64,000 nt of DNA. Origin: Candidatus Nealsonbacteria bacterium (GTDB taxonomy: Bacteria > Patescibacteriota > Minisyncoccia > Minisyncoccales > PWPS01). The stretch lies in NCBI GenBank assembly GCA_003560665.1, contig PWKK01000023.1:186040-250039 (forward strand). Reading direction: 5' to 3'. The notes under the pieces are model-generated. The model made no database searches. It saw only the letters and a list, made by a program, of their open reading frames with translations, and was not told the DNA's origin. Shown one piece after another: positions 1 to 48,977 of the stretch. Positions within the stretch are counted from its first letter, which is position 1. Each line of letters opens with the position of its first letter. The position numbers and the translations under genes are program-made.

Positions 1-707
1 AACTAAGGGATGTTTCACGCTTTGACAGGAAAAACTACTTTTATCCCGACCTACCAAAAGGTTACCAGATATCACAAGACCGAAGACCACTTTGCTTTAA
101 CGGCTATCTTGAGGTTGAAGGAAGAAGGATTCGTGTCAACCGTATTCATTTAGAAGAAGATACGGGTCGCCTCGTTCATGACGAAAAAGCGGGGCACTCT
201 TTAGTAGACTTTAACCGTTCAGGAGTACCTCTCATGGAGCTTGTGACAGAAGCAGATATCCGTTCGGCAGATGAAGCACGGAAATTTGCCGAAGAACTGC
301 GATTGATATTCCGTTACCTGGGAGTGTCTGGAGCAAACATGGACCAGGGACAGATGAGAGTAGAAGTAAATATTTCTCTTTCACACATGGAAGGAAGAAA
401 AGGAACGAGAGTGGAGATTAAAAATCTAAATTCATTTCGTGCCGTCTATCACGCCACAGAGTATGAAATAAAAAGGCAGAGCGCGTTGATTGAAAAAGGA
501 GAAAGGGTTGTTCAAGAAACACGGGGGTGGAATGATAAAAAAGAAGAAACATTTAGCCAGAGAGACAAAGAAGGAGTACACGATTATCGCTACTTTCCGG
601 AACCTGACCTTCCTCCATTGAATCTAAAAAAAGAGCCGTTTAACAAAGACAAAGTTCAACTAGAAGTAGAGCTACCGCAAAAAAAAAGAAAGCGTTTTCA
701 CGAATAA
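1..707 (+). CDS. gatB: Asp-tRNA(Asn)/Glu-tRNA(Gln) amidotransferase subunit B, N-terminal and catalytic part (5' end off-window; closes at in-frame TAA 705-707)
   Basis: Frame 3 is open from the window edge. Translation FDRKNYFYPDLPKGYQISQ..IHLEEDTGRL..DFNRSGVPLMELVTEADI..RYFPEPDLPP is the GatB core. Confidence 0.9.
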   Translation, partial: LRDVSRFDRKNYFYPDLPKGYQISQDRRPLCFNGYLEVEGRRIRVNRIHLEEDTGRLVHDEKAGHSLVDFNRSGVPLMELVTEADIRSADEARKFAEELRLIFRYLGVSGANMDQGQMRVEVNISLSHMEGRKGTRVEIKNLNSFRAVYHATEYEIKRQSALIEKGERVVQETRGWNDKKEETFSQRDKEGVHDYRYFPEPDLPPLNLKKEPFNKDKVQLEVELPQKKRKRFHE

Positions 708-1265
708 TACGGAGTAGAAGGGCCAAAAGAGATAGAAGTTTTTATAAGTAACCGGGATTTAGCGGATTATTTTGAAGGAGTTATCTCGGATGCGATTGGA
801 AGAATAAAAAAGGAAGAGTGGAAGGATAGCTTAAGAGAGGAAGAGAAAAAAGAAATTATTCGTATTTCTAAAAGCTATCTTCTTTCTGACTTTTTAGGGA
901 TACTTGAAGGGAGGTCGATAAAAGAGTCTTTGATTGATCCAGACCAGTTTGCAGAGTTTGTTTTACTTATTTATAAAAAAGAAATTTCCAGCAAAATTGC
1001 AAAAACAGTTCTGAAAGAGATGTTTCATGAAGGGAAAAGTGCTGGGGAAGTTATTAAAGAAAAAGATTTATCGCAAATGAGTGACCAAGGAGAGATAGAA
1101 AAGATTGTTTTAGAGGTAATCGAGGAAAACAAAAAGGCAGCAGATGACTACAGGGAGGGGAAAGAGGAGGCGCTTAAGTTTTTGGTAGGAAAAGTGATGG
1201 CAAAAACAAAAGGGAGAGCCGCCCCCGAAGAGGTAAACAAAATATTTAAACAACAGCTAAAATAA
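708..1265 (+). CDS. gatB: GatB C-terminal helical / YqeY-like tail, same reading frame as 1-707 and open directly after the TAA (first start-like codon only at 930)
   Basis: YGVEGPKEIEVFISNRDLADYFEGV..AKTVLKEMF..ALKFLVGKVMAKTKGRAAPEEV matches the GatB tail domain. No frame change relative to 1-707. Confidence 0.8.
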   Translation, partial: YGVEGPKEIEVFISNRDLADYFEGVISDAIGRIKKEEWKDSLREEEKKEIIRISKSYLLSDFLGILEGRSIKESLIDPDQFAEFVLLIYKKEISSKIAKTVLKEMFHEGKSAGEVIKEKDLSQMSDQGEIEKIVLEVIEENKKAADDYREGKEEALKFLVGKVMAKTKGRAAPEEVNKIFKQQLK

Positions 1266-1279
1266 GATTCTGTAAAAAG

Positions 1280-2194
1280 TTACCCCTCTGATAGCCAAAG
1301 AAATGTTTTGGTAAGAGCTTCAGCTTCCCGGTAGTTTTTAACCCAGTTTATTCTTTCGTCACGCTTCCACCACTGCATCTGTCGCTTACTGAGTTTACGA
1401 GTATTGGCAATAATTCCTTGTTTCATCTCTTCGTAGTTGATTTTGTCTTGAAGATAAAGAGCGGTCCACCTATATTCTAATCCGAATCCCTCTATTCTTT
1501 TCCACGAAACACCGTTGTCTTTTATTCTTTTCGTCTCTTCAACCATTCGCAATTTTAAGCGCTTTTTTAAGCGCTTCTTTATTTTTTTGTTTAACTCTTC
1601 CTGACTTATCTTTATTCCCAAGTAAAGAGGGGAGTAGGGTGGCTTTGTTTTTATTTTCGGAACCGGTCTTTTTGTTTCTTTAATAATTTCAAAAGCTCTT
1701 ATCAGCCGTCTTTTGTTTCTTTTGTCAATATTTTTTGCCCTTACGGGATCTTTCTTTTTCAGTTCTTTGTATAGCTGCTCTGTGTTTTTTCTCTCTAACT
1801 CTTTTCTCAGCTTCCAATCAGGAGAAACTTCCGGAATTACAATTCCGTTGACGAGAGCAGCGATATAAAATGCAGTCCCTCCGCAAACAACGGGAGTTTT
1901 TTTCTTTTTTAATATTTTTTCGATTGCTTTCTGGGAAAGCTCTTTGTACTGAGCAACGGTAAATTTTCTTTTCGGGCTTGCAACATCTAAAAGGTGGTGT
2001 GGGACACCTTTCATTTCCTCGGGAGTAATCTTTCCTGATCCGATATCCATTCCCCGGTAAACCTGTCTTGAATCGGCAGAAACAACTTCCCCGTTAAATT
2101 TAAGAGACAGTTTTACTGCCAATTCACTTTTCCCCGAAGAAGTTGGTCCGAGAACAATGATTATTTTCGGCTTATCTTTCCTTTTAATCCCCAT
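1280..2194 (-). CDS. miaA: tRNA dimethylallyltransferase
   Basis: P-loop IIIVLGPTSSGKSELA, then SADSRQVYRGMDIGSGKITPEE..VPHHLLDV. Overlaps the miaB stop by 34 nt. Confidence 0.9.
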   Translation of the reverse strand: MGIKRKDKPKIIIVLGPTSSGKSELAVKLSLKFNGEVVSADSRQVYRGMDIGSGKITPEEMKGVPHHLLDVASPKRKFTVAQYKELSQKAIEKILKKKKTPVVCGGTAFYIAALVNGIVIPEVSPDWKLRKELERKNTEQLYKELKKKDPVRAKNIDKRNKRRLIRAFEIIKETKRPVPKIKTKPPYSPLYLGIKISQEELNKKIKKRLKKRLKLRMVEETKRIKDNGVSWKRIEGFGLEYRWTALYLQDKINYEEMKQGIIANTRKLSKRQMQWWKRDERINWVKNYREAEALTKTFLWLSEG

Positions 2195-3414
2195 GAAGAG
2201 TAGTCGGTTATTTCTGCTTTAATAAATTTTCCAATTAGTTCTTTGGAGCCTTCAAAAAGTACGGTTTTATAGCCTTCTGTTTTTCCGAAAAGAAAGCCCT
2301 TCTTTTTACTTTCCTTGGTGACTAATACCCGTAGTTTTTTCCCTTTGTAGGGCTTGTTTTTTTCCAGGCTGCTTTCTTTTAAAATTTCTACCAGTATTTT
2401 TTCTCTTCTCCTTTTTTCTTCTTCGGAGACTGTTTCCTCCATTTCGGAGGCGGCGGTTTGCGAGCGAGAAGAATAGCGGGCGATATAGGCCATGTCAAAC
2501 TGTATTTCGCTAAACAGGGTAGCTGTGTTGCGGAATTTTTTTTCGGTTTCTCCCGGAAAACCAACAATAATGTCCGTTGAAAGAGCGATGTCGGGTATTT
2601 CTCTTCTAACTCTTTTCACTGTTTCTCGATAATCTTGCGCCGTATACGGACGGTTCATTTTTTCTAAAATTGCATTGTCTCCAGATTGAACAGGGAGATG
2701 AAGATAGTTAGTGACCTTTTTACAATCTTTAATCGTGAAAATAATGTTGTCGGAAAAATCTTTCGGGTGAGAAGTAGTGAACCTTAACCAGAAATTACCA
2801 TGTATTTTGTTTATTTCCTTCAAAAGCTTTGAAAAATCGACTCCTCCGTTATAGGAGTTTACATTTTGTCCCAAAAGCCACACTTCTCGGTAACCTTTTT
2901 TTATAGCTTCTTTCACTTCTTTAATGACTTCCGTTGCCGGGCGGGAAAACTCCCTTCCTTTTGTATAAGGAACGACACAGTAAGAGCAAAAGTTATTACA
3001 TCCAGTCATAATAGAAACGTATGCAGTTGGACCGCTCCTTTTTAAACTTAAATTAAAAAAGGGAATATTTTCCTTCTTTAGAAAAGGTAGTGGCCATGAG
3101 GAAACAAGGGTGATAGGCAGCACATGATCGGCAAGAGGGGATAATTTTTTCCGATCTTTTTCTAGCAAGCAACCGGTAACGATTATTAACGGTTTATTTT
3201 TAATTTTCCTTAGTTTTCTGATTTTTCCTTCTATTCTGTCAACAGCAGACTGTCTTATGCTACAGGAGTTTATCACAACAATATCAGATTTTTCTGCAGG
3301 CGCTTCTTTTAATCCTTTTTCATCAAAAAAACCGGCGATTCTTTCGCTGTCATTTATGTTCATCTGGCATCCGTAAGTAATGATTGAATAACTTGTAAAG
3401 AGATTATTCGTCAT
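2161..3414 (-). CDS. miaB: tRNA-i6A37 methylthiotransferase (radical SAM, MiaB family)
   Basis: N-terminal YGCQMN, radical-SAM CNNFCSYCVVPYTKGRE, C-terminal TRAM-like region. Confidence 0.88.
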   Translation of the reverse strand: MTNNLFTSYSIITYGCQMNINDSERIAGFFDEKGLKEAPAEKSDIVVINSCSIRQSAVDRIEGKIRKLRKIKNKPLIIVTGCLLEKDRKKLSPLADHVLPITLVSSWPLPFLKKENIPFFNLSLKRSGPTAYVSIMTGCNNFCSYCVVPYTKGREFSRPATEVIKEVKEAIKKGYREVWLLGQNVNSYNGGVDFSKLLKEINKIHGNFWLRFTTSHPKDFSDNIIFTIKDCKKVTNYLHLPVQSGDNAILEKMNRPYTAQDYRETVKRVRREIPDIALSTDIIVGFPGETEKKFRNTATLFSEIQFDMAYIARYSSRSQTAASEMEETVSEEEKRRREKILVEILKESSLEKNKPYKGKKLRVLVTKESKKKGFLFGKTEGYKTVLFEGSKELIGKFIKAEITDYSSWGLKGKISRK

Positions 3415-4507
3415 ATATTTTTTCCTTCCTTTTTCTTAAATCTTCGAGGATTTTTTCGAGAGAGGTAGAAATATTTTTCTGGGAAGATTTCGAAGAAGGG
3501 CGGGGTGATTGAGGGCGAGAGAAATTTTCATTTCGAGAAAGAATATAGTGTCTAACCTTTATCAAGGGGAAGGCGACAGTATCCATAATAACATGTAAAA
3601 AACGTTCCCTTTCTTGAATCATATAAATCTCTTTTGCAATTTCTTTTATCATTACTCCCACAAAGCAAGTAAAAACAAAAAGGGAAAACAGTATGGCCGA
3701 ATAAAAAGAGGGAAGGCTTAAAAGTTCCAGGATTAAAAAAATAATTATTGCTATAAAAACAAACCCAATAGAATAAAATATGTTTATGAGAAGGTGGGTC
3801 GGATTTTTTTTCTCTTTAGAGAAAAAGACGCTGCATGAAGTATCTTCCTTTTTTTTGTACAAGATACTCATTATCTCCAGGAGTATTCTTTTTTTGTTTT
3901 TTGAGGGAAGAGCAGGAAGATTAAAGACAAGAGAGGCAGCCATTAACGTTGGAACCAATGAGAGAAGAACCCTGGACTGTAAAGTAAAGTTGATTAAGAA
4001 GAAAGAAGATAAAAAAACGATGAAGAAAACAAACAAAGTTAAAAAAAGTATTCTTTGATGTATTCTTTTTTCTAGCCTTTTCTTTCTTTTTTCATAAATT
4101 ACTTCTGCCTCTTCTTTCAATCTTTCCGGATCGGAAAGAAACTTTTTCAATCCATTTTTTTTGTTTTTTAAAATCTCACCGATAATCAAGTAAGCTGTTT
4201 TGTGGGCTCTACAGAAAAGGTATATTTTTTTGAAAGCACTTTTCTCTAGAAGATACTTGAAATCTTTTTTTCCGGGAAATGCGTAGCCTAGAGAAGACGA
4301 ACGGTCGAAATTAAAAACAGCTTGCAGGACGGCGATATAAAGAAGGGAGTTTTTTTCTTCTTCGGTAATATTTCCCTCAATTTTTATCTTTTTTTTAATC
4401 GAATTAAAGGTATATTCGTAAATGATTTCAGTCAAGCTACCTTCTTTTTTATCAAGACGGCTGATGTCTTTTATTAGTTTTTGTGTTAAAGGGGACGGTT
4501 CAGCCAT
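3404..4507 (-). CDS. hypothetical polytopic membrane protein
   Basis: 367-aa ORF with several long hydrophobic segments. No family recognised. Confidence 0.6.
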   Translation of the reverse strand: MAEPSPLTQKLIKDISRLDKKEGSLTEIIYEYTFNSIKKKIKIEGNITEEEKNSLLYIAVLQAVFNFDRSSSLGYAFPGKKDFKYLLEKSAFKKIYLFCRAHKTAYLIIGEILKNKKNGLKKFLSDPERLKEEAEVIYEKRKKRLEKRIHQRILFLTLFVFFIVFLSSFFLINFTLQSRVLLSLVPTLMAASLVFNLPALPSKNKKRILLEIMSILYKKKEDTSCSVFFSKEKKNPTHLLINIFYSIGFVFIAIIIFLILELLSLPSFYSAILFSLFVFTCFVGVMIKEIAKEIYMIQERERFLHVIMDTVAFPLIKVRHYILSRNENFSRPQSPRPSSKSSQKNISTSLEKILEDLRKRKEKIYDE

Positions 4508-28351: not shown

Positions 28352-29863
28352 TTATTTTTTTTGTTCTTGTAGTGCCGATTTAATGTGTTTTTTTGCGGTT
28401 GTTGTTTTTGCATACTCAAACCACTTTTGACTGGGTCGACTCGATTTGCTGGTGATAATTTCTACAATATCCCCGTTCTTTAATTGACTGTTTATTGCAA
28501 CCATTTTTCTGTTTACTTTCACGCCGCTGATGCGGTTACCTATTTCCGAGTGTATTGCGTAAGCAAAATCAATCGGAGTTGAATCGATTGGGAGATCAGT
28601 CACGTCTCCTTTGGGAGTAAATACAAATATTCGTTGTTGGAAAAAATCTTCTTTTAGATCTTCTTCAAGAGCTCTTTTATTTTTATCCAGTGTTTGATAT
28701 TCTACCAACTCTTTTATCCACGAAGGAATATCGTCATAATTAATTTCTTTTTCTTTTGAGCTTTTATCAAAAGGTTTTTTAAAAGGAAGGAGACGTTTAA
28801 TCCAAAGAAGGTTAGATCCTATCTTTGTCTTCTTGCTTTCTTTGTAATAAATATGTGAGGCGACACCGTATTCTGCCTCTTGATGCATTTTTTTTGTTTT
28901 GATTTGAACTTCCAATACGTTTCCGTATCCGGTAAATATCGTGGTATGGAGTGCCTGATAACCGTTGGGCTTAGGAAAAGCGATGTAATCTTTTATTCTT
29001 CCGGGGAGAGGTCTCCATATTCCGTGGATGATTCCTAAAACCTTATAACACTCATCAACGTCCGAAAGAATAATTCTTAACGCGGATATATCATAGATTT
29101 TTTCAACATCCCAATCTTTTCTTAATAACTTTCTATAAAGACTGTAAAGAGTTTTGACTCGATAATCAAGATTAAAGTTGGTAACTCCGTTTTTTGCCAA
29201 ACCCTTTCTAATCGATTTTTGAAATTTTTCTAACTTGCCGGAATCTTCTTTTCTTTTTTCTTTTAGAATTTTTTTTGTTTGTTCGTATTCTTTGGGATAT
29301 ACGAAAGAAAAAGAAACATCTTCAAGGGATCTGCTTAACTTTCTTATTCCAAGGCGGTAAGCGACAGGAATATAAATCTCCAAAGTTTCTTTAGCAATCC
29401 TTTCTTGCTTGTGTTGGGGGACATGTTGTAGTGTCTTCATGTTGTGCAATCTGTCGGCAAGTTTGATGATGATTACACGAATGTCTTGAGAAACGGCAAC
29501 AAAAAGTTTTCTCAAGCTTTCGTTATGCCTTTCCACTCCCCTGTATTTTATTTTTCCTAACTTGGTAACTCCTTTCACCAGAAAAAGAATTTCCTCTCCG
29601 AAAAGCTCTTCAATTTTTTCTTCTTTAACATTTGCGTCTTCCAGCGAATCATGCAAAAGACCCGCCGTTACTGTTATTGGGCTCATCCTTAGCTCTGCTA
29701 AAATTTTTGCGGTTTCGTAGAGATGATTAAAGTAAGGCTCGCCAGAAAATCTTTTTTGCCCATCATGTATTTTTTTTGAAAAATCAAAAGCGTCCGCAAT
29801 CATTCTTGCGTCTTTTTTAGAAAGAGGGGACAACAGATCAATAATTTCTTTTGCATTTTCCAT
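28352..29863 (-). CDS. rel: bifunctional (p)ppGpp synthetase/hydrolase (RelA/SpoT homologue: HD, synthetase and TGS domains; no ACT domain)
   Basis: HD domain HLYETAKIL..LLHDSLED, synthetase RIKDYIAFPKPNGYQALHT, TGS IFVFTPKGDVTDLP. Confidence 0.9.
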   Translation of the reverse strand: MENAKEIIDLLSPLSKKDARMIADAFDFSKKIHDGQKRFSGEPYFNHLYETAKILAELRMSPITVTAGLLHDSLEDANVKEEKIEELFGEEILFLVKGVTKLGKIKYRGVERHNESLRKLFVAVSQDIRVIIIKLADRLHNMKTLQHVPQHKQERIAKETLEIYIPVAYRLGIRKLSRSLEDVSFSFVYPKEYEQTKKILKEKRKEDSGKLEKFQKSIRKGLAKNGVTNFNLDYRVKTLYSLYRKLLRKDWDVEKIYDISALRIILSDVDECYKVLGIIHGIWRPLPGRIKDYIAFPKPNGYQALHTTIFTGYGNVLEVQIKTKKMHQEAEYGVASHIYYKESKKTKIGSNLLWIKRLLPFKKPFDKSSKEKEINYDDIPSWIKELVEYQTLDKNKRALEEDLKEDFFQQRIFVFTPKGDVTDLPIDSTPIDFAYAIHSEIGNRISGVKVNRKMVAINSQLKNGDIVEIITSKSSRPSQKWFEYAKTTTAKKHIKSALQEQKK

Positions 29864-30077
29864 GTTTTGATTCTATTATAAATGAAAAAATTCTACAAAT
29901 TACCCCTTCGCTCTTGACAAAGATTTTTAAATTGTAAGAATGTAGACAAGGACATGCGCAAATACAAAAAGAGGTCGGCTATTTGCACACAGAAATTTTA
30001 AAAATAGTTTTTCGATAATAATTATATCCGTCACCGCAAGAAGTGGTGTTATCAACGGAAAATTTTCGAAATAAAAA

Positions 30078-30272
30078 ATGGTTACAAAAAAGAAAGCGAC
30101 CACAAAGAAGAAAGTAGTCGCAAAAAAGAAACCGGTAAAGAAGAAGACAACAAAAAAAGTAACCCCGAAAAAGAAACCGGTAAAGAAGAAGACAACAAAA
30201 AAAGTAACCCCGAAAAAGAAAACGACCGCTAAAAAGAAAACGACCGCTAAAAAGAAAACGAAAAAGAAATAA
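30078..30272 (+). CDS. lysine-rich histone H1-like basic protein (34 Lys of 64 aa)
   Basis: KKKxTT/KKKPV repeats. Followed by a strong terminator. Confidence 0.6.
   Translation: MVTKKKATTKKKVVAKKKPVKKKTTKKVTPKKKPVKKKTTKKVTPKKKTTAKKKTTAKKKTKKK
30126..30251 (+). repeat. in-frame coding tandem repeats (45 nt x2, then 18 nt x2)
   Basis: 30126-30170 equals 30171-30215, and 30216-30233 equals 30234-30251, read directly. Confidence 0.85.
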
Positions 30273-30285
30273 AAGAAATTTTTCT

Positions 30286-30313
30286 ACCCGCCCCAAAAAG
30301 GGCGGGTTTCTTT
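30286..30313. terminator. bidirectional terminator
   Basis: ACCCGCCC / GGGCGGGT stem between convergent genes. Confidence 0.75.
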
Positions 30314-31772
30314 AATCGCCTTCTTTGTTATTTTCTATGATGAATGTAACGTAAACAGTTCGAGAAGAATCTTGATGTATTTTATGAAACTCTTGAAGAG
30401 TAATTCTGGTTTCAATAGTTTCCGTTTCGATTAAATCTTTTGCGTTGATTGCTTCCGTAAAAACCACTTCGGGCGCTTCCTCTTCTTCGGGAACGAGTAG
30501 TCTAACTTTATCCGGACTCACTGATATTTCCTTTAAATCTGCGTCCCTAGGTTCTTCGATGATGTTCGCTTCGACAGGTACTTCGTGTAAGGTGTATTTT
30601 TGTGCTTTAATTTGAATCGTAGAAGGATTAATGTTTACCACGGAAACATTGAAAGGATGGCTGATATAACTTCTGTCCAATTCAATTTCATTTAATCCCG
30701 ACTCTATTCTATCTCCGGAAATAGCGATTCTTATTGCATCTGCGGGAATAGTATTTAAAACAGCTTGCCCGCGTGCAGAAAGAGTAATGGTTACTGTTTC
30801 CGGAACAGTGCTTTCGATTATTTTTTCTTCAGAGATATTGGTGTAACTTATAGGAACACTAAAATCACGCTGGACTATCTCTGCTTGAAAAACAACAAAA
30901 AACCACGCAAAACAGGCAATGGCGATTGCGGAGATTTTTTCAAAAGTACGTTCTTTGAATAAAAGTTTAAAAAAGTTTTGGGGACGCTCGGGAAACTTTT
31001 CGCGGTAGTGCTGGTTTAGATACTTTTCCAATTCTTGTGTATCTTTAAGTACTTTTATCTTTCCGTATTTGGCGACGGCAACCTCTCCACGCTCTTCGGA
31101 AACAACTATTGCCAATGCATCTGTTTTTTCGGAAATACCAATTGCTGCACTGTGTCGTGTTCCTCTTTCTTTAATCTGTTTAAGGTTTTGCGAGAGGGGG
31201 AGATGAATACCAAATTTTTGAGCTCGGTCTTTGTCGATAATTACAGCTCCGTCGTGACCAGGAGAATCCGGATCAAAAATACTTTCAAGAAGAGGGGCGG
31301 TCACTATACCATCCAGGATGTTACCTCCTCTGGTGTGGCGGTCTATTAATTCTCTTCCGGGGATAATAATCAGAGCGCCGTGTTTTTTACGCATCAGATT
31401 GGAGGCTGCTTGTACGACCGAGAAGACGGTTGATGAAAAGGCAACAGCTGTTCTGTTTTTGATTCTTCCTCTTCCCGAAGTGGCAATAAGTTCAAACGAT
31501 CTTTTCAGTTCATCCTGAAAAACAATGACAAGAACGATAATAAAAATACTAAAGAATGATTGCAATATTAGTGCGGTGATATAGAGATGGAATGCTCTCG
31601 CGAGAATGTAAATCACGCCAAGAACGCCAAGCCCGATAAAGGCGGCCAGAGAGCGAGTTTGCTTTAAAAAGAGAATTCCTATGTAAGTAAAGATGGCGAT
31701 AATAAGTACATCAAGAAGATCAGTTAGATATATAGAGCCTCCAAAACTCACATCGAGAAAGTCAAAACCCAT
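30312..31772 (-). CDS. cdaA: diadenylate cyclase CdaA fused to C-terminal YbbR/CdaR-like repeats
   Basis: Three N-terminal TM segments. DAC domain GALIII..HDGAVII..GTRHSAAIGISE..VVSEERGEV. An extra TM segment follows, then repeated beta-rich YbbR-like segments. Confidence 0.8.
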   Translation of the reverse strand: MGFDFLDVSFGGSIYLTDLLDVLIIAIFTYIGILFLKQTRSLAAFIGLGVLGVIYILARAFHLYITALILQSFFSIFIIVLVIVFQDELKRSFELIATSGRGRIKNRTAVAFSSTVFSVVQAASNLMRKKHGALIIIPGRELIDRHTRGGNILDGIVTAPLLESIFDPDSPGHDGAVIIDKDRAQKFGIHLPLSQNLKQIKERGTRHSAAIGISEKTDALAIVVSEERGEVAVAKYGKIKVLKDTQELEKYLNQHYREKFPERPQNFFKLLFKERTFEKISAIAIACFAWFFVVFQAEIVQRDFSVPISYTNISEEKIIESTVPETVTITLSARGQAVLNTIPADAIRIAISGDRIESGLNEIELDRSYISHPFNVSVVNINPSTIQIKAQKYTLHEVPVEANIIEEPRDADLKEISVSPDKVRLLVPEEEEAPEVVFTEAINAKDLIETETIETRITLQEFHKIHQDSSRTVYVTFIIENNKEGD

Positions 31773-34646: not shown

Positions 34647-34787
34647 TACGGCACATTATCTCAATATCCAAAACGACATCCGCAGACAACAGGGGTATCA
34701 TGCTTAAAGGCATTGTACTTAAAAAACCTGTCGAGGATAATTAAAGAGTTTCATTTATTGTCTGCGTTGTTTAATGCAGATTTTTTT
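34647..34787 (+). promoter_or_regulatory. structured 5' leader of rplJ-rplL (possible L10 autoregulatory leader)
   Basis: About 140 nt untranslated. Local hairpins: ACAGG..CCTGT, ATGC-TTAAAG-GCAT, TCTGC..GCAGA. Assigned by position only. Confidence 0.35.
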
Positions 34788-35297
34788 ATGACTATCACCA
34801 AAGAAAGAAAAAAAGAAATTGTGGATCAACTTTGTGAAAATATTAAAAAGCAAGACAGCTTGTTTTTCGTTAATTTTAAAGGAGTGGCGGGAAATGAAGC
34901 AAATATTTTAAGAAACGAGCTGACAAAAAGTGGAGCAAAGATGGTCGTTGCCCGAAAGACGCTGGCAAAAATTGCCTTCCAAAAAGAAGGGATTGATTTC
35001 GATCCTCTTCTCTTGAATGGAGAGGTAGGTTTTGTCTTCAGTTTTGAGGAGGGAATTAATACAGCAAAAATTATCCGCAAGTTTGAAAAGGAGGGAAAGA
35101 TACTCCTTTTGGGGGGAGTCTATGGCGGTAATGTTTTAACAGAGGAAGAGGCAAAGGCGATTGCCGACCTCTTAACAAAAGAACAGCTTCTTGCAAAACT
35201 TCTTGGAACAATATCCGCTCCCATGGGTGGATTCTTAAATGTTTTGCAGGGAAACACCAAAGGTCTTATTAACGTCTTAGCTAAAGCTAAAGTATAA
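34788..35297 (+). CDS. rplJ: 50S ribosomal protein L10
   Basis: MTITKERKKEIVDQL..FFVNFKGV..LRNEL..GAKMVVARKTL. Confidence 0.9.
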   Translation: MTITKERKKEIVDQLCENIKKQDSLFFVNFKGVAGNEANILRNELTKSGAKMVVARKTLAKIAFQKEGIDFDPLLLNGEVGFVFSFEEGINTAKIIRKFEKEGKILLLGGVYGGNVLTEEEAKAIADLLTKEQLLAKLLGTISAPMGGFLNVLQGNTKGLINVLAKAKV

Positions 35298-38285: not shown

Positions 38286-38315
38286 AAAAACCCCGCCATA
38301 GTTGGCGGGGTTTTT
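38286..38315. terminator. bidirectional terminator
   Basis: CCCCGCC / GGCGGGG stem flanked by A5 and T5 runs, between convergent genes. Confidence 0.8.
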
Positions 38316-38333
38316 CGGGCAGTATTCGTTAGA

Positions 38334-38546
38334 TTACCAGTCTTCTTCTTTGTCGTCATCACCGGTTTCTTCATCATCATCTAAATCGAGATCATCGTCT
38401 AGGTCGAGATCATCATCAAGGTCATCTCCGAGATCATCATCAAGGTCATCTCCGAGATCATCATCTCCCAAGTCATCATCACCGGTATCTTCATCGTCTA
38501 CTGCATATATTTTTTTATCGAATTCTTTTTGGTCCGTGAGGAACAT
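38334..38546 (-). CDS. hyperacidic 70-aa repeat protein (33 Asp and 6 Glu)
   Basis: MFLTDQKEFDKKIYAVDDEDTGDDDLGDDDLGDDLDDDLG..EEDW. Has its own consensus promoter and terminator. Confidence 0.55.
   Translation of the reverse strand: MFLTDQKEFDKKIYAVDDEDTGDDDLGDDDLGDDLDDDLGDDLDDDLDLDDDLDLDDDEETGDDDKEEDW
38406..38469 (-). repeat. 24-nt coding tandem repeat (about 2.6 copies)
   Basis: GAGATCATCATCAAGGTCATCTCC at 38406-38429 and 38430-38453, partial third copy after. Confidence 0.8.
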
Positions 38547-38636
38547 ATTTCTTTGTTTTCTCTCTTTAAGAGAAAACGGTTACTTTTACCTCATCACGCA
38601 CTATGATAAAAGTGCACCGACCTTTTTACTGGACAC

Positions 38637-38664
38637 ATTATAGTTTTAAAGTAAATGTTGTCAA
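38637..38664 (-). promoter_or_regulatory. minus-strand promoter (TTGACA, 16 nt spacer, TATAAT) for the acidic-protein gene
   Basis: Reverse complement reads GGGTTGACAACATTTACTTTAAAACTATAATG. Confidence 0.65.
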
Positions 38665-38708
38665 CCCTTTTTGTTTTATTTTTTCTTCTTTTATACTATA
38701 ATCACGTT

Positions 38709-39113
38709 ATGTGGCAGGTAACAGAAAAAAGAAATATTTTTTCCTTGTGGATTTCGTGGCACTACGTTGTTGCTCTTGAGAATGTTTATCTTAAATGGAG
38801 AGATATTCTTCGTTTTAATCTGGATTACTTTTCAATTCCATTTTTGATAAAAACTCTTTTTGCCCCCTGGAAAAGGTATAATCTTTCTCTTGGCAGGGGG
38901 TTTGATATTAGTAGAATTACAGAAGCTGTTGTTTTTAACACTTTTTCACGCTTGATGGGAGCGATAATGCGCATTTCCGTGATTTTTATCGGTCTGATAA
39001 TGCAACTCCTAATTTTGTTTTTTGGTATTTTTATTATCCTTTCTTGGATTCTTCTTCCATTAATGATATTAGTCGGACTATTTACATCTCTACAATGGTT
39101 AATTTTGAACTAA
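38709..39113 (+). CDS. hypothetical membrane protein (134 aa)
   Basis: ATG 38709 is preferred because the track start 38655 lies inside the divergent promoter. TATAAT ends 6 nt before the ATG, so the mRNA may be leaderless. C-terminal TM helices. Confidence 0.5.
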   Translation: MWQVTEKRNIFSLWISWHYVVALENVYLKWRDILRFNLDYFSIPFLIKTLFAPWKRYNLSLGRGFDISRITEAVVFNTFSRLMGAIMRISVIFIGLIMQLLILFFGIFIILSWILLPLMILVGLFTSLQWLILN

Positions 39114-40363
39114 AAGAGGCGGCGATTTATAGAGCGCTTACTTATAACAAGATTATTTTTATCCGACGAGCGGATCTTTTCGCAAAGCTTTTTCTTTTGC
39201 TTTCTGTCGGGCTTTTTCTTTTTTTTCTTTTCGGAGTAGAGGGGAGTTTTCTGGGGTGGAGCACTTTCTTTTTTGTCTTTTTCTTTTTTTTCACGGAGAT
39301 AGAGATGTTTTTTAAGGGTTACATCCAAAGGCCAAAACTTTTAATAAGTATCGATGAGGCGGCGGAAAATATAGAGAGTATTAATATCGCCGATTTTCTT
39401 GACTTTGAAAGTGCTAGAATTGTTGAAAAAACGGAAAAAATGGGAGGTGTTGACTCTTATCTTTTACTCTTCTTTTTACTCAAGGAGGCAAAAGAGATGG
39501 ATTTTGTTTTTTACCGTATCTTGATGGACAAAGAGCAGTCGGTTAGAGAGTTGGAAAATATGTTTCGTGAAAGAGGAAGGATAAGTGATGATGGTTACTC
39601 TGAGTGCTTTCTTAAAACCATCGTTGATGCTTTTAATATTGCAAAAGAGAGGGGAAACGAAAGAATTATGATTGAAGATATTTTTGTTGCCTTAAGCGAG
39701 CACAATGGATATCTGCAAGACAATCTTTATCAAAAAGGATTACGAAAAAAAGATGTATTTGAGCTTACATCGTGGCAAGCAAGAGCAAGATACCAAGAAG
39801 ATCCGTGGCTTTATAAAAATCTTATCAAGAGAGGAAGAATCGGAAGCGAATGGTCCTCGGGGTATATCTCCTTTCTTGAAAAATTTTCGATCGATTGGAC
39901 AAAGGGGATGAAGCTTGCAGGATTTCCTGAGACCGTTGGACACGAGAGAGAGGCGGATTCATTGGAAAGAGTTCTTTCACGAAATGAGATTAACAGTGCG
40001 GTTTTGGTGGGTGAGCCGGGGTCGGGGAGAAAAAGCATTATTCAGAAAATCATCAAAAAGAGTTTCTTGGGAGAAAGTCTTCCGGAAATTAATCACAGAA
40101 GGTTTTTGGAATTAGATCTGTCGGCAGTGGCAACTCACGCGCAAGGAATAGAAGAAACAGAGAGGGTTCTTGACGAAATTTTTAAGGAAACGGTAAGGGC
40201 GGGAAATATTATTCTCATTATTAATGATTTTCATGAATTTGTCGGAGGCGAGCAAAAACCAGGGGTGATTGATATCTCCGGAGTGTTGGGCCCCTATTTG
40301 CATGTTCCACAATTCAGGATTATCGGAGTAACCAGTTATCTTGGTTTCCGTCAAAAAATATAA
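39095..40363 (+). CDS. Clp/Hsp100-family AAA+ ATPase, N-terminal part: two TM segments, Clp-N-like repeat and a degenerate AAA1 domain (closes at in-frame TAA 40361-40363)
   Basis: LVGEPGSGRKSIIQKI (Walker A variant), IILIINDFHEF (Walker B position), RIIGVTSYLGFRQKI aligns to ClpB [13 protein letters not shown]. Confidence 0.75.
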   Translation: MVNFELKEAAIYRALTYNKIIFIRRADLFAKLFLLLSVGLFLFFLFGVEGSFLGWSTFFFVFFFFFTEIEMFFKGYIQRPKLLISIDEAAENIESINIADFLDFESARIVEKTEKMGGVDSYLLLFFLLKEAKEMDFVFYRILMDKEQSVRELENMFRERGRISDDGYSECFLKTIVDAFNIAKERGNERIMIEDIFVALSEHNGYLQDNLYQKGLRKKDVFELTSWQARARYQEDPWLYKNLIKRGRIGSEWSSGYISFLEKFSIDWTKGMKLAGFPETVGHEREADSLERVLSRNEINSAVLVGEPGSGRKSIIQKIIKKSFLGESLPEINHRRFLELDLSAVATHAQGIEETERVLDEIFKETVRAGNIILIINDFHEFVGGEQKPGVIDISGVLGPYLHVPQFRIIGVTSYLGFRQKI

Positions 40364-40384
40364 CAAAACTCTTCCGTTCTTTCT

Positions 40385-41590
40385 TTGATTGAAAAAGTAG
40401 AAGTAAAGGAAGCAACAGAAGAAGATACTCTTCTCCTTCTTGAAAGAGAAGCTCTTTTTCTTGAGAGGAAGTATAGAAAGTTAATTTCTTTTGCCGCTAT
40501 TAAAAAAACAATCTCTCTTTCTGCAAGATATATTCAGAACGCTCCTTTTCCCGAAAAGGCGTTGGACATTCTAGAGGAGGCGGTGGTTCATGTTAACCAG
40601 AAAAAGAAAGATATTCTTCTTCCAAGTGATGTTGAAAGAATTGTTTCGGAAAGGACGGAGATTCCTGTTGGAGAAGCGGACGCAAAAGAGAAAGATGTTC
40701 TTTTAAATATGGAAAACTTGTTACACGAAAGATTGGTTAATCAAAACGAAGCGGTAAAAGCGATTTCTCTTGCTCTTCGACGGTCAAGAGCTGATGTTGA
40801 TACGAGACGAAGCCTTATTGGAAGTTTTCTCTTTTTAGGACCCACGGGAGTGGGTAAGACCGAGATGGCAAAAGCGATTGCCAGTATTTACTTTGGGGCG
40901 GAAAAAAAGGTAAATCGAATTGACATGTCCGAGTTTCAAAGCATCTCCGATATTTCTCGTCTTATTGGATCTTCAACAGAAGACGGAGTACTTGCTTCAG
41001 GTGTACGGGACGACCCCTTTTCGCTTATTCTCTTAGATGAAATAGAAAAGGCCCATCCGGATATTTTAAACCTTTTTTTACAAGTGCTAGACGAAGGACA
41101 TCTTACAGACGGGAAAGGGAGAAAAGTAGATTTTCAAAATTCAATGCTTATTGCTACCAGTAATGCCGGCTACCAAACCATTCTCCGAGCTGTCGAAGAA
41201 AAAGAGGACTTTATAGAAACCAAAAAAAAGATCCTGAAAAAACTTTTTCGAGACTCTATCTTCAGGCCGGAGTTTGTTAATCGTTTTGACGAGGTTGTCC
41301 TCTTTGAACCGTTATCTAAAGAAGATCTTTTGCATGTTGCTCAACTCGAACTTGATAAAATGGCAAGGAATTTAGAAAAGAAGGATATGAAGTTCATTAT
41401 CACCGAAGGACTGAAGAGAAAAATAGTAGAGTTAAGTTATGATCCTGTTTTCGGAGCTAGGGAGATGCAAAGAGCAATTCAAAACAATATCGGTGACTCT
41501 CTTTCGTCTGCAATTCTAAAAGGAGACTTAAATAGAGGGGACTCTTTTGTCATCAATGCGGAAGATTTTACTCTCGAGAAAACACAATAA
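40385..41590 (+). CDS. Clp/Hsp100-family AAA+ ATPase, C-terminal part (rest of AAA1 plus an intact AAA2), same frame as 39095-40363
   Basis: FPEKALDILEEA, NQNEAVKAISLALRRSRA, FLFLGPTGVGKTEMAKA, LILLDEIEKAHPD, IATSNAG, FRPEFVNRFDEVVLFEPL. Confidence 0.8.
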   Translation: MIEKVEVKEATEEDTLLLLEREALFLERKYRKLISFAAIKKTISLSARYIQNAPFPEKALDILEEAVVHVNQKKKDILLPSDVERIVSERTEIPVGEADAKEKDVLLNMENLLHERLVNQNEAVKAISLALRRSRADVDTRRSLIGSFLFLGPTGVGKTEMAKAIASIYFGAEKKVNRIDMSEFQSISDISRLIGSSTEDGVLASGVRDDPFSLILLDEIEKAHPDILNLFLQVLDEGHLTDGKGRKVDFQNSMLIATSNAGYQTILRAVEEKEDFIETKKKILKKLFRDSIFRPEFVNRFDEVVLFEPLSKEDLLHVAQLELDKMARNLEKKDMKFIITEGLKRKIVELSYDPVFGAREMQRAIQNNIGDSLSSAILKGDLNRGDSFVINAEDFTLEKTQ

Positions 41591-47432: not shown

Positions 47433-48977
47433 ATGAAAAAATTTGAGAGGGAATTTAATTTCTATGAGAATCAAAAGAACAGAGAAAAATCGAAGGATAC
47501 TTTTTTTAAAAAAACAGAGGAACAAAGAATCGCTCTTACTTTTGATGATGTACGGTTAAAGTCGGGATACTCCAAAGTGATGCCCGACGATGTTGATTTG
47601 GAGTCGAAGTTTTCTCGGAATATCGGACTTAAAATTCCGATTGTCAGTGCGGCGATGGATACAGTTACCGAGCATCAGATGGGCATCGGAATGGCACTGC
47701 TCGGAGGTCTTGGCGTGATTCACAAAAACATGAGCCCGGAAGAACAAGCAAGGAGGGTTTCTAAGGTAAAGTATTATCTCAACGGGCTTATCGACAAGCC
47801 CATTTGCGTAAGAAAAGAGCAGTCCATTGCAGAGATTCTTAAAATGAAAAAGGAGAAAGAGTATTCCTTTAACACTTTTCCGGTGATCGACAAGAAAGAC
47901 CGGTTGGTAGGGATTCTAAGCAAAAACGACTTTGATTTTTGTAAAAGTGGATCAATTAAGGCCGGAGAAGCAATGTCAAAAGAGGTTATTACCGCACCCA
48001 AGGGGACAAAGCTGGAAAAAGCGTACGAAGTTATGTTCGAAAACAAGAAAAAGACACTTCCCTTGGTAGACAAAGATAACAGGCTTGCCGGTATATATGT
48101 TTTTAAAGATGTCAAAAGAATAATGATGGAAAATCCCGGAGGTTATAATGTGGATGAAAACGGACAGCTCGTGGCGGCAGCAGCCATCGGAGTAAATGAT
48201 TTTGAAAGGTTGGAGTTACTTATAGAAAAAAAGATTAATGTAGTGGTGATAGATACCGCTCACGCGGATACAGAGTCGGTAGTGCAAAACCTAAAAGAGA
48301 TAAAGAAGAAATATAAGATAGATGTGGTAGTGGGTAATGTTTCCGAACCCGAATCAACAAAGCGCCTCATAAAAGCGGGCGCCGATGGAATTAAGGTGGG
48401 TCAGGGTCCCGGATCTATCTGCACTACAAGAGTGGTAGCTGGTATCGGCTCACCGCAAGTATCGGCTGTTTACAAGTGCTCAAAGATAGCTCAGGAATAC
48501 GGAGTTCCGGTTTGCGCCGATGGGGGATTGAAGTACTCTGGAGATATTCCTATTGCGCTTGGCGAGGGAGCACACTGTGTAATGATGGGAGGAATGCTTT
48601 CGGGGACAAAAGAAGCTCCGGGAGATGTTATATTTCGCGAAGGGCGTCAGTGGAAAATTTACCGGGGCATGGGTTCTGTTGGAGCCATGGAAGAACACAA
48701 AGGATCACGTGAAAGATACAGACAATCTTCTGGTAAAAAATCACTTGTAGCCGAAGGCGTAGAAGGGCTCAAACCCTACAAGGGTGGTTTGTCTCAAGTA
48801 ATGTTTCAGTATATTAACGGTCTTAGAAGAGGAATGGGTTATGTGGGAGCGGCAGATATCGCTGAGCTTCACCGGAAAGCTGATTTTGTAAGGATAAGTG
48901 GGGCGGGGAAGGCGGAGTCTCATCCGCACGATATTTTAATAACAAGAGAGCCACCAAACTACCCGATAGGTGATTGA
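47433..48977 (+). CDS. guaB: IMP dehydrogenase
   Basis: [24 protein letters not shown] pair, [21 protein letters not shown] catalytic loop, GGLKYSGD. Confidence 0.93.

What the first reader, a model, noticed from the sequence alone, without database searches (positions are those of the whole stretch)
40340..40390. Second in-frame TAA at a conserved Glu position (Clp-like ATPase), the same pattern as gatB
39095-40363 and 40385-41590 are in the same frame, separated only by TAA 40361-40363, and the codons between are open: ..IGVTSYLGFRQKI*QNSSVLSLIEKVEV.. This aligns with the Hsp100 segment ..[24 protein letters not shown].V.., placing the stop on the Glu of IEKD.

Two unrelated conserved genes in 64 kb each carry a lone TAA at a Glu (GAA-like) column, with intact downstream frames and no restart signals. 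That is hard to dismiss as random decay. TAA also ends many ordinary genes here, including gatB itself, rnc and trmD. So any decoding would have to be local (readthrough or suppression) rather than a global reassignment. A systematic G-to-T artefact is the main alternative.
Basis: partly seen in the sequence, partly recalled or inferred. Interest (0 to 1): 0.6.

Follow-up and report, generated by a model that had tools for sequence, protein, structure and literature searches.

The report
Private G-to-T changes, not recoded stops
The two in-frame TAA stops in the Clp-like ATPase gene and in gatB are real in this deposited contig, but independent assemblies of the same bacterial population read GAA (Glu) at both sites, so they are most likely sequence errors and not a new way of decoding TAA.

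Summary
TAA at 40361-40363 splits an 831-codon membrane-anchored Clp/Hsp100-like gene (39095-41590) at a column that is Glu in 120/120 homologs. TAA at 705-707 splits gatB at a column that is Glu in 98/120 homologs.

A Logan assembly of run SRR490129 matches window 38436-40954 at 2518 of 2519 bases, and the only mismatch is G instead of T at 40361. A JGI/IMG protein of 761 aa is identical except for Glu at the stop. For gatB, a Logan contig from SRR490128 and a JGI/Logan 489-aa protein read GAA/Glu at 705.

The deposited 267-kb NCBI contig carries at least five more private single-base changes. Six of its seven private non-synonymous changes are transversions at G:C pairs (four G:C>T:A, two G:C>C:G), and five of the seven hit conserved residues. 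This looks like unselected, guanine-targeted change, that is, error or very recent damage.

TAA is also the main true terminator (36 of 59 genes). GAA is the second commonest codon, so GAA>TAA is the expected nonsense outcome of G>T changes. I found no readthrough signal, restart signal or suppressor tRNA in the window.

Verdict: not a real feature; low interest.

The parts
40361..40363 (+). In-frame TAA in the Clp-like gene. Base 40361 is T here and G (GAA, Glu) in independent assemblies.
   Evidence: Logan contig L005 differs from window 38436-40954 only at 40361, G versus T. JGI/IMG protein P0138 is identical over 761 aa except for E at this position.
39095..41590 (+). Clp/Hsp100-like double-AAA+ ATPase gene of 831 codons with an N-terminal hydrophobic region. 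It is intact in all relatives.
   Evidence: Pfam AAA, AAA_lid_9, AAA_2 and ClpB_D2-small. The listed homologs run from 752 to 886 aa, mostly about 830-860 aa, and reach 87-88% identity. The Glu column is 120/120.
705..707 (+). In-frame TAA in gatB. Base 705 is T here and G (GAA, Glu) in independent assemblies.
   Evidence: Logan contig L006 has G at 705. P0150, an intact 489-aa GatB from JGI and Logan, reads ...RFHEEYGV....
3..1265 (+). gatB, with its 5' end cut off by the window edge.
   Evidence: GatB_N and GatB_Yqey domains lie on either side of the stop.
489..489 (+). Private C>A change in gatB (CTT Leu to ATT Ile) at a column that is Leu in 118/120 homologs.
1549..1549 (-). Private change in miaA, coding-strand G>C (GGA Gly216 to CGA Arg). 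The position is Gly in 3/3 aligned solved MiaA structures.
1678..1678 (-). Private change in miaA, coding-strand A>G (Lys173 to Glu), at a variable column.
3595..3595 (-). Private change inferred from the proteins: CAT His305 here, Asp in the JGI/Logan copy. This implies coding-strand G>C.
   Evidence: Only the proteins were compared, not the DNA.
48565..48565 (+). Private change inferred from the proteins in IMP dehydrogenase: GAG Glu378 here, Ala in the Logan copy. This implies C>A. The position is Ala in the four aligned solved IMPDH sequences.

Best explanation
The TAA at 40361-40363, and its twin at 705-707, is a single G-to-T difference private to the deposited 267-kb contig. The population this contig was assembled from carries GAA (Glu) at both sites, and both genes are ordinary intact genes. 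The two stops are the most visible members of a set of at least seven private point changes in this window, almost all of them transversions at G:C pairs hitting conserved residues. This is the signature of unselected, guanine-targeted change. The most likely cause is an error fixed in the deposited consensus, for example from oxidised-guanine type damage, low local coverage or a minor read path taken by the assembler. Nothing decodes these TAAs. The shown steps are the allele difference, the spectrum of changes and the conservation of the affected columns. The step from there to 'error' rather than 'real rare allele' is inferred. The confidence of 0.7 is for the error reading; that the TAAs are not decoded, whether they are errors or real rare alleles, I put at about 0.9.
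For: (1) Logan contig SRR490129_58899, seen in 2 samples, equals window 38436-40954 except for G at 40361, and its ORF runs 620 codons through the site.

(2) JGI/IMG protein P0138 (761 aa, on a 9,307-bp contig) is identical to the window protein except for E at the stop.

(3) Logan contig SRR490128_26647 and protein P0150 (JGI + Logan, 489 aa) give GAA/Glu at 705.

(4) Elsewhere the window and the Logan contigs are 100% identical over 7,474, 2,329 and 924 bp, and differ at 1 base in 2,664 bp. They are therefore the same population.

(5) The private changes are 489 C>A, 705 G>T, 40361 G>T, 48565 C>A, 1549 and 3595 coding-strand G>C, and 1678 A>G. Six of the seven are transversions at G:C. Five hit conserved columns: Glu 120/120, Glu 98/120, Leu 118/120, Gly 3/3 and Ala 4/4.

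(6) In the 19 kb compared as DNA, 5 of 6 differences are non-synonymous and only 2 of 6 are transitions. That is the pattern of unselected change, not of ordinary strain polymorphism.

(7) 14.2% of possible G:C>T:A changes in these genes create a stop, and 37.5% of those are GAA>TAA, so two TAA-at-Glu events are the expected nonsense outcome.

(8) G:C>T:A and G:C>C:G are the documented artefact classes from oxidised guanine in library preparation (PMC3616734, PMC8748355).
Against: Oxidative library artefacts are normally at low allele fraction and should not reach a consensus at good coverage, so some further cause is needed and is not shown here. Candidates are low coverage, a different read set or an assembler or curation step.

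I could not see reads or coverage. I also could not recover the DNA of the JGI contigs, so two of the seven private changes are inferred from proteins only.

The comparison is partly ascertained. L005 and L006 were fetched because they span the stops, and protein look-ups can only reveal non-synonymous differences.

The same spectrum would arise in a real lineage with defective 8-oxoG repair.
Confidence: 0.7

Rival explanations
1. The T alleles are real: a minor or sample-specific strain carries genuine nonsense mutations, so clp and gatB are fresh pseudogenes, together with other recent unselected G-targeted mutations. This could arise in a lineage with weak 8-oxoG repair or in a bottlenecked symbiont population. 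The assembler happened to capture that haplotype.
For: The stops are in the deposited record itself. The population has some true microdiversity: Thr/Ile422 in the RelA/SpoT-like gene is shared between the window and Logan but differs in JGI, and 41194 is a synonymous transition. The gatB-miaA stretch has 4 differences in 3.3 kb, which could be a linked haplotype. G:C>T:A is also the in vivo mutY/mutM mutator spectrum (established knowledge).
Against: Losing GatB and a Clp ATPase at once, and damaging conserved residues in MiaA, IMPDH and GatB as well, in a small-genome organism would be strongly deleterious. None of the truncated products is seen in any source other than the NCBI contig. Three other sources assemble the G allele without a contig break at the site.
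Confidence: 0.2
2. Local decoding of TAA as an amino acid by an ochre-suppressor tRNA (for example tRNA-Glu with anticodon UUA) or by programmed readthrough, so that both genes give full-length protein.
For: Both stops sit on Glu columns, and the frames downstream are intact. The rest of the genome, including its tRNA set, could not be inspected.
Against: The same population reads GAA at both sites. All 120 Clp relatives and all 120 GatB relatives have a sense codon there, and the nearest GTDB genome has GAA. TAA terminates 36 of 59 genes. The stop contexts TAA-C and TAA-T share no motif. Downstream RNA folds no better than shuffled sequence, with z-scores of -0.01 and -1.2. The three tRNAs in the window are ordinary Tyr-GTA, Thr-GGT and Trp-CCA. 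The stops come together with missense changes of the same mutational class, which no decoding mechanism would explain.
Confidence: 0.03
3. Genuinely split genes: each gene is expressed as two polypeptides that assemble into a working protein.
For: A TTG lies 21 nt after the Clp stop at 40385, and both halves contain whole Pfam domains.
Against: There is no Shine-Dalgarno-like sequence before 40385; the upstream bases are AAACTCTTCCGTTCTTTCT. In gatB the first possible start after the stop is 225 nt downstream at 930, so 74 codons would be lost. The split falls inside the first AAA module at an invariant Glu. No relative is split among the listed Clp and GatB homologs.
Confidence: 0.02

Closest known systems
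Guanine-oxidation type sequencing artefacts (G:C>T:A from 8-oxoG; G:C>C:G from further oxidised guanine) described for sheared Illumina libraries (PMC3616734, PMC8748355)
   Same: Six of the seven private non-synonymous changes in the window are G:C>T:A or G:C>C:G. They fall on both strands and pay no regard to residue conservation.
   Different: Those artefacts are low-frequency read errors, whereas here the changes are fixed in a deposited consensus. Read-orientation bias, the diagnostic feature, could not be tested.
Stop-codon reassignment in Candidate Phyla Radiation relatives (UGA read as Gly in Gracilibacteria/Absconditabacteria, genetic code 25; own knowledge)
   Same: The organism is a Patescibacteria/Parcubacteria-type bacterium. 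The nearest GTDB genome is a Candidatus Nealsonbacteria at 73% identity.
   Different: That reassignment is genome-wide and concerns UGA. Here TAA, TAG and TGA all terminate genes, and only two TAAs are in-frame.
Ochre suppression by mutant tRNAs (E. coli supB, supC, supG/supL type; own knowledge)
   Same: It would allow in-frame TAA in essential genes while TAA still ends most genes.
   Different: No suppressor tRNA is in the window, and the in-frame TAAs are absent from the other assemblies of the same population.
Clp/Hsp100 class I AAA+ unfoldases (ClpB, ClpC, ClpA)
   Same: The affected gene has two AAA+ modules, AAA_lid_9, AAA_2 and the ClpB D2-small domain.
   Different: It scores far below the NCBIfam equivalog cut-offs for ClpB and ClpA. 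It has a hydrophobic N-terminus and an atypical first P-loop, GEPGSGRKS, which is conserved in its family.

Membership tests
Programmed stop-codon readthrough / local recoding site | The in-frame stop is conserved in close relatives or in other isolates of the same organism. | tested here: not met
   The same-population assemblies read GAA at both sites. All 120 Clp homologs have Glu. All 120 GatB homologs have a sense residue, mostly Glu.
Programmed stop-codon readthrough / local recoding site | A shared sequence context or a downstream RNA structure that promotes readthrough. | tested here: not met
   The contexts ATA-TAA-CAA and GAA-TAA-TAC share no motif. The 100 nt downstream fold with z-scores of -0.01 and -1.20 against shuffles.
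Programmed stop-codon readthrough / local recoding site | A decoding agent, such as a suppressor tRNA with anticodon UUA. | not testable with these tools
   Only 64 kb of the genome is available. Its three tRNAs are Tyr-GTA, Thr-GGT and Trp-CCA.
Genome-wide TAA reassignment | TAA is not used as a terminator, and many conserved genes carry in-frame TAA. | tested here: not met
   TAA ends 36 of 59 genes. Only two genes carry an in-frame stop.
Guanine-oxidation type sequence artefact | An excess of G:C>T:A (and G:C>C:G) among the differences from an independent reference of the same DNA. | tested here: met
   There are four G:C>T:A, two G:C>C:G and one A:T>G:C among the 7 private non-synonymous changes.
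Guanine-oxidation type sequence artefact | Read-orientation (strand-of-origin) bias and low allele fraction in the reads. | not testable with these tools
   No read-level data are available.
Clp/Hsp100 class I AAA+ ATPase | Two AAA+ modules, with the AAA_2 and D2-small domains at the C-terminus. | tested here: met
   Pfam AAA (E = 1.1e-4), AAA_lid_9, AAA_2 (E = 7e-46) and ClpB_D2-small (E = 3e-20).
ClpB or ClpA equivalog (NCBIfam TIGR03346 / TIGR02639) | A score above the curated equivalog cut-off. | tested here: not met
   The scores are 443.8 against a cut-off of 1232.1, and 394 against 993.15.

The most novel reading that the evidence does not exclude
The T alleles are real in a subpopulation of this Parcubacteria-type organism that tolerates GAA>TAA nonsense mutations in essential genes because it carries an ochre-suppressing tRNA. 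TAA would then be read partly as an amino acid while still terminating most genes. This would be a natural example of suppressor-buffered nonsense alleles in an uncultivated symbiont.
Probability: 0.03. Interest if true: 0.6.

Novelty: not a real feature. Interest (0 to 1): 0.07.

Why it matters
If TAA were read as Glu at specific sites in a bacterium, that would be a new recoding mechanism. The evidence says it is not. The practical value is as a data-quality flag. This deposited contig carries roughly one private, mostly G-targeted, non-synonymous change per 5 kb of coding sequence. These changes create false pseudogenes (clp, gatB) and false substitutions at conserved residues (MiaA, IMPDH, GatB). 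In-frame stops elsewhere in this genome should therefore be checked against the reads before any claim of gene loss or altered decoding.

Tried and rejected
A global code change was rejected from the stop-codon census.

Other split genes were sought by scanning all six frames for long same-frame segments separated by one stop. The four extra pairs are normal gene boundaries.

Exact-pattern scans around both stops, with the stop base left free, found nothing in the GTDB representative genomes or in the JGI metagenome contigs.

A junction-centred protein search returned only one distant hit.

Several exact-protein look-ups for neighbouring genes failed, partly because TTG or GTG starts and different start calls change the first residues. 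Re-entering the products with Met and using cluster look-ups solved this.

A literature search for the run accessions found nothing, so the source study and its sequencing chemistry are not identified.

RNA folding downstream of both stops showed nothing above shuffled controls. Rfam found only three tRNAs and the L10 leader.

Full report
**Observation.** The window reads ...CAA AAA ATA TAA CAA AAC... at 40352-40369. Translation of 39095-41590 gives one 831-codon frame interrupted only by this TAA...GVTSYLGFRQKI*QNSSVLSLIEKVEV.... The part before the stop holds the first AAA module. The part after it holds AAA_lid_9, AAA_2 and ClpB_D2-small. gatB (3-1265, with its 5' end cut by the window edge) has a single TAA at 705-707...RKRFHE*YGVEGP.... 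GatB_N lies before the stop and GatB_Yqey after it.

A scan of all six frames for long segments separated by one stop found four further same-frame pairs. Their translations show ordinary gene ends followed by new genes that have their own N-termini or low-complexity sequence. Only two of about 60 genes are therefore interrupted, both by TAA.

**Conservation of the two columns.** I aligned 120 homologs of the Clp-like protein, which reach 87-88% identity and are mostly about 830-860 aa long. The stop column is Glu in 120/120. In 120 GatB homologs the column is E in 98, D in 15, Q in 3, Y in 2, K in 1 and S in 1. The nearest GTDB representative, a Candidatus Nealsonbacteria MAG with 73% identity, has GAA at the Clp site.

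**Where the window comes from.** Exact look-ups show that the window's proteins are on record from an NCBI contig of 267,099 bp. The 422-aa and 401-aa Clp halves and the 111-aa gatB tail appear as separate NCBI-only products. The TAAs are therefore in the deposited sequence. Pieces of the same population are also present in per-run Logan assemblies of SRR490128, SRR490129 and SRR490150, and in JGI/IMG metagenome contigs.

**The decisive comparison.** Logan contig SRR490129_58899 (2,519 bp, seen in two samples) aligns to window 38436-40954 with a single mismatch: G in Logan against T in the window at 40361. Its gene call runs 620 codons straight through the site. JGI/IMG protein P0138 (761 aa, from a 9,307-bp contig) is identical to the window protein at every residue except Glu in place of the stop.

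For gatB, Logan contig SRR490128_26647 aligns to window 1-3352 with four mismatches, one of which is G against T at 705. Protein P0150 (489 aa; JGI and Logan) is an intact GatB that reads ...RFHEEYGV.... Elsewhere the Logan contigs are identical to the window over 7,474, 2,329 and 924 bp, and differ at one synonymous base in 2,664 bp. These sequences are therefore the same population, not a sister species.

**The stops are part of a wider set of private changes.** The other differences between the window and the independent assemblies are listed below.

| Position | Change in the window | Effect | Conservation of the original residue |
|---|---|---|---|
| 489 | C>A | GatB Leu to Ile | Leu in 118/120 homologs |
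| 1549 | coding-strand G>C | MiaA Gly216 to Arg | Gly in 3/3 aligned solved MiaA structures |
| 1678 | coding-strand A>G | MiaA Lys173 to Glu | variable column |
| 3595 | coding-strand G>C, inferred from proteins | Asp305 to His in the 3404-4507 product | not assessed |
| 48565 | C>A, inferred from proteins | IMPDH Ala378 to Glu | Ala in the four aligned solved IMPDH sequences |

With the two stops, that makes seven private non-synonymous changes in about 35.5 kb of coding sequence checked (my sum over). Four are G:C>T:A, two are G:C>C:G and one is a transition. Five of the seven hit conserved columns.

In the 19 kb compared directly as DNA, five of six differences are non-synonymous and only two are transitions. 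Natural within-population variation is normally dominated by synonymous changes and transitions. This pattern instead looks like change that selection has not filtered.

**Why both stops are TAA at Glu.** GAA is the second commonest codon, at 1,093 of 17,614 codons. Of all possible G:C>T:A changes in these genes, 14.2% create a stop, and 37.5% of those stops are GAA>TAA. Given a G>T-biased process, two TAA-at-Glu events carry little information. With four G:C>T:A non-synonymous changes and a nonsense chance of roughly 0.16 each (my approximation, somewhat above the computed 14.2% because these changes are already non-synonymous), seeing two or more stops has a probability of about 0.12 by my arithmetic.

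**Tests of a decoding mechanism.** TAA is the main true terminator: 36 TAA, 13 TAG and 10 TGA. The contexts ATA-TAA-CAA and GAA-TAA-TAC share no motif. The 100 nt downstream of each stop fold no better than shuffled sequence, with z-scores of -0.01 and -1.20. The window's tRNAs are Tyr-GTA, Thr-GGT and Trp-CCA, and Rfam adds only the L10 leader.

Restart is also unsupported. No Shine-Dalgarno-like sequence precedes the TTG at 40385. In gatB the first possible start after the stop is at 930, 74 codons downstream.

**Interpretation.** The best-supported reading is that both TAAs are G>T changes private to the deposited contig and are not decoded. I put this at about 0.9 overall. About 0.7 of that goes to an error fixed in the consensus, and about 0.2 to real alleles of a rare or sample-specific haplotype, that is, fresh pseudogenes in a lineage accumulating G-targeted mutations.

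G:C>T:A and G:C>C:G are the classes of artefact documented for oxidised guanine generated during DNA shearing and library preparation (PMC3616734; PMC8748355). Those artefacts are normally at low allele fraction, however. How they would have reached a consensus is not shown, and low coverage or an assembler or curation step are only candidates. Suppression or readthrough remains possible only in the weak sense that the rest of the genome could not be searched for a UUA-anticodon tRNA. I give it about 0.03.

**Comparison with known systems and novelty.** The affected gene is a Clp/Hsp100-type double-AAA+ ATPase, but it is not a ClpB or ClpA equivalog by NCBIfam cut-offs. The finding does not meet the tested defining features of a recoding site: neither conservation of the stop nor a recoding signal. 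It also does not meet those of a genome-wide reassignment. It does meet the one testable feature of a guanine-oxidation artefact, the substitution spectrum. Classification: not a real feature. Its use is as a quality flag for this genome record.

**Limits.** I had no reads, no coverage data and no DNA for the JGI contigs. Two of the private changes are inferred from protein differences. Two of the six Logan loci were fetched because they span the stops. Protein look-ups can only reveal non-synonymous differences, so the non-synonymous excess is firm only for the 19 kb compared as DNA.

Noticed in passing
window 39095-40360 (N-terminal half of the Clp-like gene): This Patescibacteria Clp/Hsp100 family has a strongly hydrophobic N-terminus (...LFLLLSVGLFLFFLFG..., ...FFFVFFFFF...), which suggests membrane anchoring. 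Its first P-loop is atypical, GEPGSGRKS, and is conserved across the 120 homologs. LSLxEKVEV stands where ClpB has the ERRF arginine-finger segment. In this organism the first Walker B reads IINDFH, against VIDEFH in most relatives. The first ATPase module may be degenerate.
   Followed up: partly
window 30122-30261: Perfect tandem repeats of 45 bp x 2.2 and 18 bp x 2.7 (both 100% match) lie just downstream of the cdaA-like gene. On the minus strand they read as a Phe/Leu/Arg-rich low-complexity ORF (29979-30296) that is probably not a gene.
   Followed up: no
window 38373-38495: Tandem repeats of 18 bp and 24 bp (the 24-bp unit x 2.5 at 100% match) lie between the hsp20 gene and the gene at 38655. 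They underlie a Ser/Arg-rich ORF (38302-38643) of doubtful coding status.
   Followed up: no
window 30312-31772 (- strand): The diadenylate cyclase CdaA (CdaA_N + DAC domains) is 486 aa, about 200 aa longer than usual. It has an extra C-terminal region after a further hydrophobic segment, which may be a fused CdaR/YbbR-like regulator.
   Followed up: no
window 489, 1549, 1678, 3595, 48565: Further single-base changes are private to this deposited contig relative to the JGI/IMG and Logan assemblies of the same population. Most are transversions at G:C pairs, and they alter conserved residues of GatB, MiaA and IMP dehydrogenase.
   Followed up: yes
window 28598-28600 (- strand, RelA/SpoT-like gene 28352-29863): This looks like a true population polymorphism. 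Thr422 (ACT) is shared by the window and a Logan assembly, while the JGI/IMG copy and a 92%-identical relative have Ile.
   Followed up: partly
window 34662-34795: An Rfam L10_leader match (59.2 bits, above the gathering score of 44) lies upstream of rplJ. It is an ordinary ribosomal-protein leader and is present in this small genome.
   Followed up: no
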